This document shows positions 23,085-60,818 of a DNA stretch of 64,000 bases, piece after piece. Source of the stretch: Nitrososphaeraceae archaeon (GTDB taxonomy: Archaea; Thermoproteota; Nitrososphaeria; Nitrososphaerales; Nitrososphaeraceae); the NCBI GenBank assembly GCA_044870765.1, contig JBIOZG010000054.1:1-64000 (forward strand). The letters run 5' to 3'. Positions within the stretch are counted from its first letter, which is position 1, and every line of letters begins with the position of its first letter. The notes beneath the pieces are model-generated. The model had not been told where the DNA came from. It saw only the letters and a program-made list of their open reading frames with translations, and searched no databases. Both the position numbers and the translations under genes were made by a program.

Positions 23085-23249
23085 AAATAAAATACCAAAA
23101 AGTAAATATCATGTGAAAAAAGCTGGAATTGGGCAAGCCGATAGTGTCATAGGTATCGAGGTCTGACCGAGAGGGACATGACAATATGTATTTCTTCACT
23201 AAATTCATTGGAGACAGAAATATAAAGATCCCAAATATATAATGGCTCT

Positions 23250-23867
23250 ATGCGTGTTATTTTTAAAGCCATCTCAATCCCGGCAATAGCAATTGTCTTT
23301 GCTATAACTTGCGTTCCATTTGTCGTCCATGCATCCAATTCTGTCATGGTAGATGTGGGCGGAAATGGTAGTTCATGGTCTTCTTTTACCCCTCAGAGTG
23401 TTGAAATCAAAGCAGGGGATAGCGTAACATGGCGTAATCCAATGACTGTTTCCGAACCACATACTGTTACGTTTCTAAAAGATCAAAGTTTCTATCCACC
23501 GCCTGCTGTGCCTATGCCTATTACATTTAATTCTACAGACCTAAAAGCAGACCCCGATGCGAACATTGATCCTCTTATAATAAATCAGAATGGAACAAAG
23601 TCTGTAATTGTTGATAATGCTCGACACTATAATCCAGTTTCAATAGATTCTTCTGGCAAAAACGCAACATATCTTCCTCTTAATGCAAATTATACATTAA
23701 CTGGGACTGAGAAATTTGTAAGTTCTGGATGGATGTGGCCTGATGGATTGGCACCGCTAGGAGCGCCACCGATTAAGTCTTTCTCAGTTACCTTTGAAAA
23801 TGCAGGAAAATATGATTACTTGTGTGTTGTACATCCCTGGATGACTGGAACTGTAATCGTTAATTGA
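23250..23867 (+). CDS. Secreted blue (type-1) copper cupredoxin
   Basis: Signal peptide; FTPQSVEIKAGDSVTW, EPHTVT, YLCVVHPWM ligands. Confidence 0.9.
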   Translation: MRVIFKAISIPAIAIVFAITCVPFVVHASNSVMVDVGGNGSSWSSFTPQSVEIKAGDSVTWRNPMTVSEPHTVTFLKDQSFYPPPAVPMPITFNSTDLKADPDANIDPLIINQNGTKSVIVDNARHYNPVSIDSSGKNATYLPLNANYTLTGTEKFVSSGWMWPDGLAPLGAPPIKSFSVTFENAGKYDYLCVVHPWMTGTVIVN

Positions 23868-23929
23868 GAAAATAATCCCACCAGCGAACGTATGTGGTCA
23901 CAGTAGGTCTGCGACAATCTTACCAACAA

Positions 23930-24015
23930 AGAAAAAAATAATTAGGCCGGTGGGATGAAGCGTAGTGATAAGAGAATCCCCACCGGCCATTTGTCTTAAA
24001 ATGTTTTCGGAAGTA
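23930..24015 (-). ncRNA. Candidate small hairpin RNA (CYGGTGGG-stem family) with own promoter
   Basis: Perfect 10-bp GC stem 23945-54/23979-88, followed on - strand by a T-run; promoter block 24014-24046 homologous to 54485-54517. Confidence 0.5.
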
Positions 24016-24111
24016 ATCAAACTAACTAATACAAGATATAAGAATTTGGCTTACCTTAGTTTACTTTCTCGAGATCATCGTAATTTTTAATAAGATGTCA
24101 ATCTAACGAAA

Positions 24112-24240
24112 GTGTCTTTGAGTCAGAATGACAGGTGCATATGTGGACATATAAGATCACGTCATGCTCGAAAGTCGCCCAAGAATAATCCTACTAAATG
24201 TAGTAAATGTGAGTGCCCGAAATTTAGAATTCATAATTAG
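24112..24240 (+). CDS. Cys/His micro-protein, family C (CxCGH..H...CxxCxCxxF; not in ORF track)
   Basis: GTG 24112 or TTG 24118: SQNDRCICGHIRSRHARKSPKNNPTKCSKCECPKFRIHN; paralog at 54802. Confidence 0.72.
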   Translation: MSLSQNDRCICGHIRSRHARKSPKNNPTKCSKCECPKFRIHN

Positions 24241-24426
24241 CGCATATCACAATAAAGTTTAAATCATCTTGCAACCTACGGAAACAAGAACTTGTTTTAT
24301 AATTAACACCGGTGGGCCATTTCTCGGGTGAGATGGACGGCTCCACCTGGCGCTCTACATTAATGTAGAGGTTTACCAATGCAAATAAACGATATAAAAA
24401 TCAATCTGATGGATGATATTAGTTTC

Positions 24427-24468
24427 AGAAAATTGTTACTAAATTATTTTTAGAAAATTGTTACTAAA
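24427..24468. repeat. 17-bp direct repeat agaaaattgttactaaa x2
   Basis: Copies at 24427-24443 and 24452-24468. Confidence 0.8.
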
Positions 24469-24778
24469 CTTTACTGACCACGAGTGCCATATGCCCTTCG
24501 ATAACTATTCATCCCCCAATCAAGTTTATCACCTTTTTTTAGTTTCCATCATCTCACAATACTCATCGACATCGTGGTTCGTAAAGCAGGAAATTCCGAT
24601 TATTTATTATGCATGTGCCAATATCACTAGCGATAATCGAGTTTATGCGCTATAGATGTATCAATTTGTTTTTGCGTGAGTATGTTTCAGGTTGCTATAT
24701 GTTTGAGTTTGATATTCTCAAAAATCTATTGAAAAAGGAGATCACTTGCAGAAAAAATAAATAATATGAAAGCAAACA

Positions 24779-25255
24779 TTGAATATGAGCCAAGTTAAAA
24801 TTCCAAGAGGTTATCATTCAATAACTCCTTATATCACAGTGAACGGCGGAGAAGCCGCAATAGAATTTTATAAAAACGCGTTTGGTGCCGAAGAACGCGG
24901 CCACATGAAAACTCCAGATGGTAAGACCGCACACGCTGAGTTAAAAATTGGTGATTCTGTCTTCATGTTATCTGATGAATTTCCAGAGATGAAAAATCTC
25001 TCACCAAAGTCGATTGGCGGGAGCCCTGTGTCATTGTATATGTATGTAGAGGATGTTGATGCGACGTTTGAAAAAGCAGTATCTGCTGGCGCAAAGGTTT
25101 TAGACCAGGTTACAGATCAGTTTTGGGGTGACCGTCATGGTCGACTGGAAGACCCCTTCGGCCACCAGTGGAATATAGCCACCCACATAAAAGACCTTTC
25201 AGAAGAAGAAATGAAAAAAGCGGCAGAAGAGGCATTCTCCAGAATGTCAAAATAA
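24779..25255 (+). CDS. VOC/glyoxalase PhnB-like protein
   Basis: GYHSITPY, AIEFYKNAFGAEE, HAELKIGDS, DQFWGDRHGRLEDPFGHQW. Confidence 0.92.
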   Translation: MNMSQVKIPRGYHSITPYITVNGGEAAIEFYKNAFGAEERGHMKTPDGKTAHAELKIGDSVFMLSDEFPEMKNLSPKSIGGSPVSLYMYVEDVDATFEKAVSAGAKVLDQVTDQFWGDRHGRLEDPFGHQWNIATHIKDLSEEEMKKAAEEAFSRMSK

Positions 25256-25302
25256 ACCTTCATCTGAAGTATGAAATTTTGAATATACATTAATCATAAT
25301 AA

Positions 25303-54296: not shown

Positions 54297-54514
54297 CTAT
54301 ACCCACTGAAATCGAGTTAGACGATAGACTTCATTGCATATAGTAATGCTGTCGAAGTCCGAATTTCAATGTTGAGATAAGCTAATTTCTACAATCTGAA
54401 GATTTAGGTAAAATGAAACAGGTGGAGGAATATTGTTTTTTGTTTGATCTTATGCAGATAAACCCTCACACCTCTACATGTTACAATTCTTTTATCTTTT
54501 GTTGTGCAAATTGA

Positions 54515-54605
54515 TTATAGGTAAAGCACCAAGAGAACACCGTTTCATGACTGGTGGGTCTTACATTTATACCACCTATTGAATAGACCCACCAGTTTAC
54601 TTATC
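54515..54605 (+). ncRNA. Candidate small hairpin RNA (CYGGTGGG-stem family)
   Basis: Perfect 12-bp stem 54550-61/54585-96; promoter block 24/33 identical to the reverse complement of 24014-24046. Confidence 0.5.
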
Positions 54606-54801: not shown

Positions 54802-54927
54802 ATGAGCAGTGCAGACGATCTGTGTGCATTTTGTCATCACCAACGGATTGGTCACAGGAATGACCTTGGAGAGCAGAACTCAACTTGTTCTTGGCCTAAT
54901 TGTGGCTGCAAGGAATTTATCGAATGA
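54802..54927 (+). CDS. Family C Cys/His micro-protein (41 aa; not in ORF track)
   Basis: MSSADDLCAFCHHQRIGHRNDLGEQNSTCSWPNCGCKEFIE; atataa TATA ~25 bp upstream. Confidence 0.72.
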   Translation: MSSADDLCAFCHHQRIGHRNDLGEQNSTCSWPNCGCKEFIE

Positions 54928-59947: not shown

Positions 59948-60156
59948 ATGACAATTTGTACCCTACTCTACTATCTGCTTTTCTAAGTTTACTTGAATCA
60001 TGTTAACTAGTGGGCTTTAATTTCTTTTATCATTAACTTCAAATGACATCCACATGGAATTACTATTCGAAAGCAAACTCACCTATATTTCATATCATAT
60101 CATTTGCATCTTTATTTTTCAAGTAATAATAAATAGGATGAACGATAAAATAACTT

Positions 60157-60630
60157 ATGAGTCAAATAAAAAAAATTCCAGAAGGATATCATTCAATAAC
60201 TCCTGTTTTGATCGTGAAAGATGGGAATGCAGCAATTGAATTCTATAAGAAGGGATTTGATGTAGAAGAGCGACATCGGTTGAAGAGTCCCGACGGCAAG
60301 GTCGCGCACGCTGAATTAAAGTGAGGTGATTCTATCTTTATGTTGTCAGATGAATATCCGGAGATGAAATGTCATTCACCCAATTCAATTGGTGGAAGTC
60401 CAGTTTCCATGTATGTCTATGTTGAAGATGTTGATGAACTTTTCAATAAAGCTGTCTCTGCAGGCGCTAAAGTTCTGGATCCTGTGAAGGATCAATTCTG
60501 GGGCGATCGCCATGGTCGACTAGAAGATCCATTTGGACATCTTTGGTCAATAGCGACTCACAAAAAAGACCTCTCAGAAGAGGAAATGAAAAGAGCAGCA
60601 GAAACAGCTTTTTCTCAAATGTCAAAGTAA
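60157..60630 (+). pseudogene. VOC/PhnB paralog with an in-frame TGA at 60322-60324
   Basis: MSQIKKIPEGYHSITP...HAELK*GDSIFMLSDEYP, collinear with 24779..25255. Confidence 0.85.
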
Positions 60631-60818
60631 ATTTTCATCTTAATCATTTTCCCTCATTGTTTCAATATTAGGATTCATTAGGAAAGTACAATATAGACAA
60701 ATAATACCCTTGTGTTCACAATATTCCAATCATTTTGTACTTGCTATTTGGTAACAAAAACGTAGACTTTATACTATATATTGATCATGAATCAATCTGA
60801 TATAGCTAATGTAAATAA

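What the first reader, a model, noticed from the sequence alone, without database searches (positions are those of the whole stretch)
23930..24370. Candidate promoter + GC-hairpin small-RNA family that travels with a Cys/His micro-protein (locus 1)
Seen: on the - strand, a TATA block (aattcttatatctt...ttgatta, 24046-24014) is followed by atggccggtggg...cccaccggcc (10-bp perfect stem) and a T-run. At 54485-54600 on the + strand the same layout recurs: the promoter block is 24/33 identical without gaps, followed by atgactggtggg...cccaccagt. The stems differ by compensatory changes (C-G to T-A), and both loops contain ttat-ac. A third looser ccggtggg hairpin plus an 18-bp palindrome (24309-24370) lies on the other side of the micro-gene. 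Both loci sit next to an unannotated family C gene (24112, 54802). Inference: a recurrent sRNA + zinc micro-protein module, either a regulatory RNP or a type I/III toxin-antitoxin-like pair, that I do not recognise as described.
Basis: partly seen in the sequence, partly recalled or inferred. Interest (0 to 1): 0.82.

Follow-up and report, generated by a model that had tools for sequence, protein, structure and literature searches.

The report
Multicopy hairpin small-RNA genes in soil archaeon
The promoter-plus-hairpin element is real and belongs to an apparently undescribed family of dozens of small RNA genes found only in one genus of soil ammonia-oxidising archaea, while the tiny zinc-protein gene beside it is tightly paired with a different, even better conserved small RNA gene.

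Summary
Both loci carry a 24/33-identical promoter block followed by a GGTGGG/CCCACC-clamped hairpin, and this is far beyond chance (15 exact hairpins in the genome against 0.35 expected).

- **A family of small RNA genes.** There are about 30-42 copies per genome. Each has a TATA box about 50 nt upstream, a leader of about 30 nt, a hairpin and a T-rich tail that often runs into the next unit's TATA, giving arrays.
- **Selection at RNA level.** G·U pairs far outnumber A·C on the promoter-defined strand, and some stem changes are compensatory.
- **Narrow distribution.** The family was found in 21/24 genomes of the genus, 0/129 genomes of 17 sister genera and 0/16 other families. There is no Rfam match, and seven literature searches found no description.
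- **Loose link to the micro-protein.** 12 of 69 micro-genes lie within 1 kb of a hairpin, against about 1.5 expected. The geometry is not fixed, and three of six genomes show no such pair.
- **The tight partner is a different element.** The "third hairpin + palindrome" is an ~84-nt two-hairpin RNA gene on the minus strand, convergent with the micro-gene and contiguous with it in 24/26 occurrences.
- **A variable block.** The cupredoxin, sRNA, micro-gene and second RNA together form a 1.49-kb indel.

Function is inferred, not shown.

The parts
24048..24064 (-). Conserved upstream element GTAAACTAAGGTAAGCC, directly 5' of the TATA box of the locus-1 (A-type) RNA gene
   Evidence: Majority fraction 0.92 across 23 aligned units from at least 14 genomes, against 0.56 for the flank. 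In this genome it stands upstream of clamp hairpins at four places: 0 mismatches at C54 and C17, 1 at C12 and 2 at C19.
24014..24046 (-). Promoter block of the A-type RNA gene: TATA TTATAT at 24041-24036 and the start-site box TTGATTACTTCC at 24020-24009
   Evidence: 24/33 identical to 54485-54517. TATA-like motifs fall 41-60 nt upstream of the model start in 15 of 30 family copies, against 1.7 expected.
23932..24018 (-). Predicted A-type small RNA of about 86 nt: 5' leader, 10-bp GC clamp hairpin (23945-23988) and a 7-T run (23938-23932)
   Evidence: Fold -22.4 kcal/mol, z = -2.5. CM R1 hit at E = 2.3e-5. Leader majority fraction 0.83 and stem arms 0.91-0.92, against 0.48 for the 3' half of the loop. 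G·U 36 against A·C 2. Both ends are predicted, not mapped.
23877..23884 (-). Lone CCCACCAG arm (plus-strand reading): remnant of a second, B-type hairpin unit, abutting the cupredoxin stop codon
   Evidence: In the homologous modules on C12, C17 and C56 a second promoter and a CTGGTGGG hairpin follow the A unit. Here only one arm remains.
23250..23867 (+). Cupredoxin (plastocyanin/azurin-like) gene, convergent with the A-type RNA gene
   Evidence: PF00127, E = 7.7e-9. Covered by contigs of four RNA runs.
24112..24240 (+). Micro-protein gene, 42 codons: CxC-x-H-x4-H ... C-x2-C-x-C-x2-F. Its TATA-like AATTTTTAATAA lies at 24082-24093.
   Evidence: 11 paralogues in the genome with seven invariant Cys/His positions. 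Variable columns by codon position are 16, 17 and 36 of 42 in 19 orthologues. The profile hits 24/24 genomes of the genus. No Pfam family.
24295..24378 (-). Second small RNA gene (SL3-RNA), convergent with the micro-gene. Hairpin 1 is the '18-bp palindrome' (24353-24370). Hairpin 2 (24309-24350) has a nearly invariant loop of about 22 nt.
   Evidence: Alignments A4/A6 of 19 loci. G·U 12 against A·C 0 in the minus orientation. Loop-length differences are not multiples of 3. Minus-strand fold z = -6.5. CM R2 gives 26 hits in 19 of 40 genus genomes, all at E <= 3e-18.
24389..24403 (-). Predicted promoter of SL3-RNA (TGATTTTTATATCGT on the minus strand)
   Evidence: Invariant or nearly invariant in 19 of 19 aligned loci, about 25 nt upstream of the conserved GGTAAACC.
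54485..54600 (+). Locus-2 unit of the same RNA superfamily: promoter block 54485-54517, leader, hairpin 54550-54596
   Evidence: Best CM R1 hit in the genome, E = 1.9e-7. Fold z = -4.2. The unit is conserved in 9 other genus genomes.
54802..54927 (+). Second micro-protein gene of the same Cys/His family
   Evidence: It stands beside the locus-2 RNA unit in the own genome, G012, G016 and G046, but the RNA unit or the micro-gene occurs alone in other genomes.
23169..24655 (.). Variable 1.49-kb block: cupredoxin, A-type RNA, micro-gene and SL3-RNA
   Evidence: Absent from G042, where 7 nt join the flanks. In G012 about 490 nt replace it, carrying another clamp-hairpin unit and a gene for a small secreted-looking protein.

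Best explanation
**The locus-1 element is a small RNA gene.**
- It most likely encodes an RNA of about 86 nt, transcribed from the minus strand.
- The predicted start is near 24018 and the predicted end near 23933.
- It has its own archaeal promoter: an upstream element, a TATA box and a GATTA start box.

**It belongs to a superfamily restricted to one genus.**
- These 'GC-clamp hairpin' RNA genes number about 30-42 per genome.
- The stem consensus is C-Y-GGUGGG ... CCCACC-R-G.
- Each unit is a promoter, then a 5' leader of about 30 nt, then a hairpin with a conserved stem and a variable loop, then a U-rich tail.
- In arrays, the tail of one unit merges into the TATA box of the next.

**Most likely function (inferred).** I read them as sibling regulatory small RNAs.
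- The clamp would stabilise or terminate the RNA, and may serve as a protein handle.
- The leader and the loop would carry the specificity.

**Why they lie near the micro-protein genes.** They sit in variable intergenic stretches rich in small genes. That is why they often, but not always, lie near Cys/His micro-protein genes.

**The fixed partner of the locus-1 micro-gene is a different RNA gene.**
- It spans 24378-24295 on the minus strand and folds into two hairpins.
- It converges on the micro-gene's 3' end.
- It probably regulates the micro-gene in cis, or is bound by its product.

**Shown:** the family, the promoter spacing, the strand-specific wobble pattern, the distribution, the linkage and the indel.

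**Inferred:** transcription, RNA ends and function.
For: **(1) A real family.**
- 15 exact hairpins against 0.35 expected.
- The covariance model R1 gives 42 matches at E <= 1 in the genome.
- At E <= 1e-4 it hits 0 of 129 genomes of 17 other genera. This also serves as a false-positive control.

**(2) A promoter at a fixed distance.** TATA-like motifs lie 41-60 nt upstream in 15 of 30 copies, against 1.7 expected. In the reverse orientation the peak is at -20 to -1, which is the next unit's promoter.

**(3) Selection on one strand.**
- In 23 A-type units, oriented by homology of the whole unit, there are 36 G·U cells and 2 A·C cells. Of the G·U cells, 19 are a conserved G·U pair at the stem base, so 17 against 2 without it.
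- In 29 copies from this genome there are 17 G·U and 2 A·C cells, or 7 against 2 without the outermost pair.
- Stem position 2 is U:A in 21 copies and C:G in 5.
- Fully compensated GAUGGG/CCCAUC and GGUGGA/UCCACC stems also occur.

**(4) Constraint by segment in the A-type unit.**

| Segment | Majority fraction |
|---|---|
| Upstream element | 0.92 |
| TATA | 0.85 |
| Leader | 0.83 |
| Stem arms | 0.91-0.92 |
| TATA-to-start spacer | 0.69 |
| 3' half of loop | 0.48 |
| Flank | 0.56 |

**(5) Position in the genome.** All 25 clusters are intergenic.

**(6) Distribution.** Hits in 21/24 genomes of the genus at E <= 1e-3 and in 0/16 other families of the order.

**(7) SL3-RNA.**
- 19 of 19 aligned loci keep the promoter, both stems and the loop.
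- G·U 12 against A·C 0.
- 26 clean hits with model R2, 24 of them contiguous with the micro-gene.

**(8) RNA libraries (weak).** Contigs of one RNA library (X2) cover 23829-23978, 24005-24145 and 24117-24275.
Against: **No direct proof of a discrete transcript.**
- Only assembled contigs could be laid. These cannot show strand, start or end, and DNA may be present in RNA libraries.

**Weak termination signals.**
- Only 10 of 30 copies have a run of four or more T within 20 nt downstream, against 4.4 expected.
- Locus 2 has none, so read-through into downstream genes is possible.

**No predicted target.**
- Duplex energies of the leader and the loop against 2187 start regions do not beat shuffled controls.
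- No complementary match of 16 nt or more was found in the genome.

**Limits of the comparative evidence.**
- The orientation of the 29-copy alignment was partly chosen from promoter evidence, so the test is partly circular.
- Copies and genomes are related, so cell counts overstate the number of independent events.
- Conservation of the leader could partly reflect recent copying.
Confidence: 0.55

Rival explanations
1. The units are composite terminator-promoter cassettes, like the PeSLs of T4-type phages. In this reading the hairpin ends the upstream transcript and the following TATA starts the next one. Their main roles would be to insulate and express small accessory genes and to provide homology for modular shuffling. 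The short leader-hairpin RNAs in arrays would then be by-products.
For: - About half of the hairpins are followed within about 10-25 nt by a TATA-like box.
- The units sit in a variable block with three states at one chromosomal site: empty in G042, one cassette in the own genome, and a different cassette with another hairpin unit in G012.
- G016 shares the cupredoxin and the A unit up to window position 24066, then diverges.
- There is an exact tandem duplication of a unit on C56.
- PeSLs are described as small composite terminator/promoter sequences that mediate indels in hyperplastic regions (abstract of PMC4122927).
Against: - The leader and the 5' half of the loop are conserved across species, which a pure promoter/terminator role does not need.
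- Many units follow one another with no gene between them.
- The breakpoints of the 1.49-kb indel do not fall on hairpin units, and no repeats are seen at them.
- Hairpin position relative to the micro-genes is not fixed.
Confidence: 0.2
2. The micro-gene and its adjacent RNA form a toxin-antitoxin-like pair or an RNP. Either the RNA counteracts or regulates the micro-protein (type I-like, by 3'-overlapping antisense), or the zinc micro-protein binds the RNA.
For: - For SL3-RNA only: the linkage is strict and convergent. 24 of 26 occurrences are contiguous with the micro-gene, and 6 of 6 full-length hits in five genomes lie about 60-80 nt from one.
- The RNA is more conserved than the protein.
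- The micro-protein is basic and Cys/His-rich, so it could plausibly bind nucleic acid.
- Convergent, 3'-overlapping antitoxin RNAs are known from type I systems such as txpA/RatA and bsrG/SR4. This is recalled, not tested here.
Against: - The micro-protein has no hydrophobic helix of the kind type I toxins have.
- No overlap of transcripts has been shown.
- For the clamp-hairpin family the association is loose: 12 of 69, and none in 3 of 6 genomes.
- 9 of the 11 micro-genes in this genome have no clamp hairpin within about 200 nt.
- SL3-RNA itself has a single copy in this genome, at the locus-1 micro-gene, and folding the 170 nt downstream of the other ten micro-genes showed nothing comparable.
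Confidence: 0.13
3. The hairpins are selfish or neutral repeated extragenic palindromes (REP- or MITE-like DNA repeats) with no RNA function.
For: - They are multicopy, intergenic and restricted to one lineage.
- They often lie at contig ends in other assemblies.
- Two of the three tyrosine-recombinase genes lie within about 3 kb of hairpins or a micro-gene.
Against: - No terminal inverted repeats or target duplications are seen at the unit ends.
- No TnpB-type gene is present: 0 hits to PF07282.
- The promoter sits at a fixed distance, and the wobble pattern is strand-specific.
- The nearest neighbours are ordinary chromosomal genes or ORFans: 17 of 37 have a Pfam hit at E <= 0.001, several of them below Pfam's own cut-off. 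The clear ones are TGT, MsrA, helicase, NurA, MFS and Hsp20.
Confidence: 0.07
4. The locus-1 hairpin is simply the 3' end or terminator of the cupredoxin mRNA.
For: - It lies 78 nt after the cupredoxin stop codon.
- An A-run precedes it and T-rich sequence follows it on the plus strand, so it could act as a bidirectional terminator.
Against: - The 23 aligned A-type units include copies in this genome (C12, C17) that have no cupredoxin beside them. One search matched cupredoxin sequence next to a unit on the same contig only at G016:C42, G010:C9 and G022:C49.
- The whole unit, with a minus-strand promoter, is conserved.
- The wobble pairs fit the minus strand.
- An RNA-library contig covering the cupredoxin runs into sequencing-adapter sequence at 23925, before the hairpin, in run X4. 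This is a weak hint.
Confidence: 0.03

Closest known systems
Sibling (multicopy) small regulatory RNAs in tandem, e.g. LhrC1-5 of Listeria, Qrr1-5 of Vibrio (recalled, not from a call)
   Same: - Several to many related RNA genes of about 80-100 nt.
- Each has its own promoter and a terminal hairpin with a U tail.
- They are partly arranged head to tail.
   Different: - The host is an archaeon, with a TATA/BRE promoter.
- There are dozens of copies.
- Only the 8-10-bp stem is shared across the superfamily, while the leaders and loops differ.
- No targets or chaperone are known, and no Rfam family matches.
PeSL promoter-early stem-loop cassettes of T4-type phages (PMC4122927, abstract read; PMC2839356, search listing only)
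   Same: - Short repeated units combine a stem-loop with a promoter.
- They lie among small variable genes.
- They are associated with insertions, deletions and replacements.
   Different: - The setting is a cellular archaeal chromosome, not a phage.
- The order in a unit is promoter, leader, then hairpin.
- The leader is conserved.
- The observed indel breakpoints do not lie in the units.
Type I toxin-antitoxin loci with convergent 3'-overlapping antisense RNA (txpA/RatA, bsrG/SR4; recalled)
   Same: A gene for a tiny protein is strictly linked to a convergent small structured RNA gene (the SL3-RNA / micro-gene pair).
   Different: - The protein is a basic Cys/His zinc-type domain, not a membrane peptide.
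- Neither overlap nor toxicity has been shown.
Repetitive extragenic palindromes, MITEs and integron attC sites (recalled)
   Same: Intergenic imperfect palindromes with conserved arms and a variable centre, in many copies, near small genes.
   Different: - Each unit has its own promoter.
- The wobble pattern is strand-specific.
- There are no TIR/TSD and no RAYT or TnpB-like gene.
- The arms do not match the attC R-box consensus (recalled).
- The orientation towards the adjacent ORF is not fixed.
Archaeal C/D-box and H/ACA guide RNAs
   Same: Small archaeal RNAs of similar size, sometimes clustered.
   Different: - No RUGAUGA or CUGA boxes, and no ACA after the stem, in the A-type consensus (read).
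- No Rfam hit at gathering score.

Membership tests
Any Rfam 15 family | Covariance-model score at or above the family's gathering score | tested here: not met
   0 hits in the 64-kb window. The permissive scan of 23800-24450 gave only sub-threshold hits; the best was P26 at 27.2 bits against a gathering score of 36.
Independent small RNA gene (sRNA) | Own promoter at the proper distance | tested here: met
   A TATA-like motif lies 41-60 nt upstream in 15 of 30 copies, against 1.7 expected. The upstream element, TATA and start box are conserved in 23 A-type units.
Independent small RNA gene (sRNA) | Structure conserved at RNA level (compensatory and wobble changes on one strand) | tested here: met
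   G·U against A·C is 36:2 for the A type, 17:2 for the family and 12:0 for SL3-RNA. U:A changes to C:G at stem position 2.
Independent small RNA gene (sRNA) | Discrete transcript with defined 5' and 3' ends | not testable with these tools
   Only contigs of public RNA runs could be laid. They show no ends or strand.
Type I toxin-antitoxin | Small hydrophobic (membrane) toxin peptide | tested here: not met
   The micro-protein sequences are basic and Cys/His-rich and have no hydrophobic stretch.
Type I toxin-antitoxin | Antisense RNA overlapping or pairing with the toxin mRNA | tested here: inconclusive
   SL3-RNA is convergent, and its hairpin ends about 55 nt from the stop codon. Overlap depends on transcript ends that have not been mapped.
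PeSL-like promoter/terminator cassette | Stem-loop joined to a promoter, repeated between variable small genes | tested here: met
PeSL-like promoter/terminator cassette | Indel or replacement breakpoints lie within the repeated cassettes | tested here: not met
   The breakpoints of the 23169-24655 block in G042 and G012 are not in hairpin units. Only one site was examined.
MITE / IS200-IS605-derived element (omega RNA) | Terminal inverted repeats with a target duplication, or an associated TnpB/TnpA gene | tested here: not met
   The unit ends show no inverted repeats. PF07282 has 0 hits in the genome, and the control search hit 8 of 14 named genomes.
Integron attC | Fixed position and orientation downstream of each cassette ORF, with an integron integrase | tested here: not met
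   The geometry varies. Three tyrosine recombinases are present, but none is adjacent to an array. The IntI-specific domain was not tested.
C/D-box or H/ACA guide RNA | C (RUGAUGA) and D (CUGA) boxes, or an ACA box 3' of the hairpin | tested here: not met
   Absent from the A-type consensus and from the locus-1 and locus-2 sequences.
Pfam zinc-finger families (for the micro-protein) | Score above a Pfam gathering cut-off | tested here: not met
   The only hit is FAM221 at E = 0.079, 13 bits against a cut-off of 25. Ten longer proteins with 3-6 copies of the domain have no Pfam family.

The most novel reading that the evidence does not exclude
The GC-clamp RNAs and the Cys/His micro-proteins are the two halves of one RNP system, specific to this lineage of soil ammonia oxidisers.

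- The invariant GGUGGG/CCCACC clamp, and the invariant loop of SL3-RNA, would be the protein handle.
- The variable leader and loop would act as exchangeable guides.
- The result would be an RNA-guided regulatory or defence network carried on variable cassettes.
Probability: 0.1. Interest if true: 0.85.

Novelty: new variant of a known kind. Interest (0 to 1): 0.62.

Why it matters
- **A gap in knowledge.** Seven full-text searches found no paper describing regulatory RNAs in ammonia-oxidising archaea.
- **Testable candidates.** Two clean, promoter-defined RNA families give concrete targets for transcript mapping and RNP biochemistry in Nitrososphaeraceae. One has dozens of copies per genome. 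The other is locked to a gene for a 42-residue zinc-type protein.
- **Annotation gaps.** Gene callers leave the micro-genes unannotated.
- **Genome evolution.** The units mark variable cassette sites, which bears on how these genomes gain and lose small genes.

Tried and rejected
- **Rfam.** The gathering scan and the permissive scan gave no family. There are no tRNAs in the window.
- **Coding reading of the hairpin** (ATG-GCC-GGT-GGG...). Rejected, because the ATG is missing in the closest paralogues on C12 and C17.
- **Target search.**
  - blastn-short with the leaders and loops found only other family members or matches of 15 nt or less.
  - Duplex energies against 2187 start regions were no better than shuffles.
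  - The SL3-RNA loop has no complement in the genome.
  - An 8-nt complementarity between the A-type leader consensus and the micro-gene start region is not kept in the own locus, or in G014 by inspection, so I dropped it.
- **Public RNA runs.** 18 RNA runs hold 29-45% of the sampled words of 23200-25300.
  - The laid contigs of X1, X3 and X4 cover the two flanking genes. X2 also covers the intergenic part.
  - Contigs show no strand, ends or level.
  - The X2 contigs over 23981-24051 run on, past 24042, into sequence like the paralogous C12 locus (loose end). I draw no conclusion on expression.
- **Micro-protein structure and look-alikes.**
  - The AlphaFold2 model has pLDDT 54.7, too poor for a fold search.
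  - The PDB profile search gave only E > 1 similarity to zinc-ribbon stretches.
  - The ESM Atlas returned only 'hypothetical' clusters.
- **Viral contigs.**
  - The scan with the micro-protein alignment could not run, because the alignment has no stretch conserved enough.
  - Six viral contigs hold the exact 17-mer of the upstream element, but none has a clamp hairpin. By my rough estimate these are chance matches.
- **Neighbouring genes.** The nearest neighbours of the arrays share no common partner gene.
- **Earlier notes of this scan.** Nothing on this genome.
- **Literature.** Seven searches found no description. The thaumarchaeal mobile-element paper PMC6563490 has 0 occurrences of 'hairpin', 'MITE' or 'stem-loop'. 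Supplementary files of papers were not available.
Full report

- Locus 1, minus strand:
  - the promoter-like block runs 24046-24014;
  - a perfect 10-bp stem GGCCGGTGGG/CCCACCGGCC lies at 23945-23988;
  - a run of seven T lies at 23938-23932.
- Locus 2, plus strand:
  - the block runs 54485-54517;
  - the stem ACTGGTGGGTCT/AGACCCACCAGT lies at 54550-54596.
- The two blocks are 24/33 identical without gaps.
- The stems differ by one C:G to U:A double change.
- The pattern GGTGGG-N10-40-CCCACC occurs twice in the window, against 0.00 in 100 shuffles.
- Genome-wide there are 15 exact cases, against a mean of 0.35 in block shuffles. Five other hexamer pairings of the same composition give 0-1 each.
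- The window is contig C54 of a 2.0-Mb assembly of 59 contigs with 36% G+C.
- Names attached to relatives of its proteins place it in Nitrososphaeraceae.

**A large family.**

- Allowing one mismatch gives about 41 hairpins with arms YGGTGGG/CCCACCR and loops of about 15-40 nt.
- Many are clustered:
  - five within 450 bp on C56, including an exact tandem duplication;
  - three on C59;
  - pairs on C12, C17, C28 and C54.
- I aligned 29 copies (A2) and built a covariance model from them (R1).
- R1 finds 42 matches at E <= 1 in the genome.
- All 25 clusters lie between ORFs of at least 80 codons.

**Anatomy of a unit.**

- Printing the flanks shows a recurrent TATA-type box, such as CTTTTTTATAAAATGTTGG, about 50 nt upstream of the stem.
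- In about half of the copies another such box follows the stem directly, which gives head-to-tail arrays with a spacing of about 110 nt.
- TATA-like motifs fall at -60 to -41 in 15 of 30 model hits, against 1.7 expected.
- In the opposite orientation the peak is at -20 to -1.
- That orientation was partly chosen from promoter evidence, so only the sharp spacing counts as independent.
- Only 10 of 30 copies have a run of four or more T within 20 nt, against 4.4 expected.

**The locus-1 (A-type) unit across genomes.** A DNA search of the genus showed that window positions 23935-24066 recur as a self-contained unit of about 130 nt. I aligned 23 copies from at least 14 genomes. The majority fraction by segment is as follows.

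| Segment | Majority fraction |
|---|---|
| 5' flank | 0.56 |
| Upstream element GTAAACTTAGGTAAGCCA | 0.92 |
| TATA | 0.85 |
| TATA-to-start spacer | 0.69 |
| Start box GATTACTTCC plus leader | 0.83 |
| Stem arms | 0.91-0.92 |
| Loop, 5' half | 0.68 |
| Loop, 3' half | 0.48 |

- This alignment is oriented by homology of the whole unit, so it is free of the circularity above.
- In it the stem has 198 Watson-Crick, 36 G·U and 2 A·C cells.
- Of the G·U cells, 19 are a conserved G·U at the stem base, which leaves 17 against 2.
- In the 29 copies from this genome the counts are 17 G·U against 2 A·C, or 7 against 2 without the outermost pair.
- Position 2 of the stem is U:A in 21 copies and C:G in 5.
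- Fully compensated GAUGGG/CCCAUC stems and a GGUGGA/UCCACC stem also exist.
- A·C on one strand would be G·U on the other. The asymmetry therefore argues for selection on an RNA, or on a single strand, of the promoter-defined polarity. That polarity is opposite to the cupredoxin gene.

**Distribution.**

- R1 hits 21 of 24 genomes of the same genus at E <= 1e-3, and 0 of 16 other families of the order, sampled at one genome each.
- At E <= 1e-4 it hits 13 of 21 genus genomes and 0 of 129 genomes from 17 other genera of the family.
- The tally includes one unpublished genome, G020. Without it the count is 20/23.
- No Rfam family matches.
- Seven literature searches found no description.

**The micro-protein.**

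- Eleven ORFs in the genome share seven invariant Cys/His positions, C-x1-2-C-x-H-x4-H...C-x2-4-C-x-C-x2-F/Y.
- In 19 orthologues of the locus-1 gene, the variable columns by codon position are 16, 17 and 36 of 42. It is therefore a real coding gene under purifying selection.
- The profile hits 24/24 genus genomes and 1/16 other families.
- It has no Pfam family.
- Database relatives are 'hypothetical'.
- A search of the 1.8-billion-protein representative library found 420 clusters at E <= 1e-3. Many are longer proteins with 2-6 tandem copies of the same motif. The ten I scanned have no Pfam family either.
- The AlphaFold2 model was unusable, with pLDDT 54.7.

**Does the hairpin RNA travel with the micro-protein?** Only loosely.

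- In six genomes, 12 of 69 micro-genes lie within 1 kb of a family hairpin, against 1.5 expected on a uniform null. Three genomes have none. The hairpin may be upstream or downstream, on the same or the opposite strand.
- In the own genome the count is 4 of 11. The expectation is 0.87 when positions are drawn only from intergenic runs of at least 300 nt.
- The locus-2 RNA unit is conserved in 9 other genomes and its micro-gene in 5 others. Besides the own genome they stand together only in G012, G016 and G046.

**The real RNA partner.** Aligning the locus-1 micro-gene region from 19 loci showed that the sequence downstream of the gene is more conserved than the gene itself.

- Read on the minus strand, it has a nearly invariant promoter, TGATTTTTATATCGT (24403-24389).
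- About 25 nt further on, an RNA of about 84 nt begins (24378-24295).
- Hairpin 2, GGUGGAGCC/GGCUCCACC, has a nearly invariant loop of about 22 nt.
- The loop of hairpin 1 varies in length by 1, 2 or 3 nt, so the element is not coding.
- The stems show 12 G·U and 0 A·C cells in the minus orientation.
- The minus-strand fold has z = -6.5.
- A model built on it (R2) finds 26 matches in 19 of 40 genus genomes. All have E <= 3e-18, with nothing weaker up to 0.01.
- By the DNA matches, 24 of the 26 are contiguous with the micro-gene.
- In five genomes, 6 of 6 full-length BLAST hits lie 60-80 nt from a micro-gene and converge on it.
- The own genome has a single copy of this RNA, at the locus-1 micro-gene, and the 170 nt downstream of the ten other micro-genes showed nothing comparable.

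**A variable block.**

- Compared with G042, window positions 23169-24655 are an insertion or deletion with a 7-nt junction. The block holds the cupredoxin gene, the A-type RNA, the micro-gene and SL3-RNA.
- In G012 the same site holds about 490 nt with a different clamp-hairpin unit and a gene for a small secreted-looking protein.
- G016 shares the cupredoxin and the A unit up to 24066, then diverges.
- The breakpoints show no repeats and do not lie in hairpin units.

**What it is not.**

- There is no TnpB-type gene and there are no TIRs, so it is not an omega RNA or a MITE.
- C/D and ACA boxes are absent.
- The ATG at the stem is not conserved, so the hairpin is not coding.
- Three tyrosine recombinases exist, two of them within about 3 kb of hairpins or a micro-gene. 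None is adjacent to an array.
- The nearest neighbours are ordinary genes or ORFans.

**Mechanism.**

- I judge it most likely (0.55) that these are independently transcribed small RNAs, comparable to sibling sRNA families.
  - The GC clamp would be a stabilising or terminating stem, and perhaps a protein handle.
  - The leader and loop would be the specific parts.
- SL3-RNA would be a cis-linked regulator or ligand of the micro-protein.
- The main rival (0.2) is a PeSL-like terminator-promoter cassette role (abstract of PMC4122927).
- The two readings do not exclude each other.
- Transcription, RNA ends, targets and binding are all inferred. The public RNA data could be laid only as contigs, and target prediction gave nothing above the controls.

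Noticed in passing
proteins P0032-P0044: The CxxCGHxxxxH...CxxCxCxxF motif of the micro-protein also occurs as 2-6 tandem copies in proteins of 150-640 residues from other, apparently high-GC, organisms. The library holds 420 representative clusters at E <= 1e-3. None of the ten proteins I scanned has a Pfam family, so this looks like an uncatalogued zinc-type domain.
   Followed up: partly
window 23169-24655 versus L037 (G042) and L035 (G012): One chromosomal site has three states: empty, a 1.49-kb cassette, or a different cassette of about 490 nt. Both cassettes carry clamp-hairpin units and small genes. No repeats are visible at the breakpoints.
   Followed up: partly
own genome C56:16863-17297: Five hairpin units lie within 450 bp. 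They include an exact 47-nt tandem duplication, joined where the CCCAC of one unit abuts the TGGTGGG of the next, which suggests slippage or recombination at the clamp sequence.
   Followed up: no
own genome C21:11060-11130, C21:21492-21557, C28:36800-36880, C59:20668-20720, C30:827-879: A subfamily of the hairpins shares a conserved loop motif, GGTTGTTTCTTGTTCAT(C)A. Its complement reads ATGAACAAGAA, like a start codon region. No matching gene start was found.
   Followed up: partly
window 24427-24470: A direct repeat of about 17 nt (agaaaattgttactaaa, twice) lies downstream of the SL3-RNA promoter. One RNA-library contig skips 36 nt here, and relatives have one copy.
   Followed up: no
own genome C59:22829-23374 and C11:51147-51683: Two of the three tyrosine-recombinase genes lie within about 2-3 kb of clamp hairpins (C59) or of a hairpin and a micro-gene (C11). 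This hints that some units sit in integrated elements.
   Followed up: no
L067 (G012:C73:520-1000): In this copy the micro-gene has a 2-nt gap and in-frame stops in my extraction, although the adjacent SL3-RNA is 96% identical. It may be a decaying gene beside an intact RNA gene.
   Followed up: no
window 60122-60631: A paralogue, 73% identical in DNA, of the gene at 24779-25255 lies 35 kb downstream in the same window.
   Followed up: no
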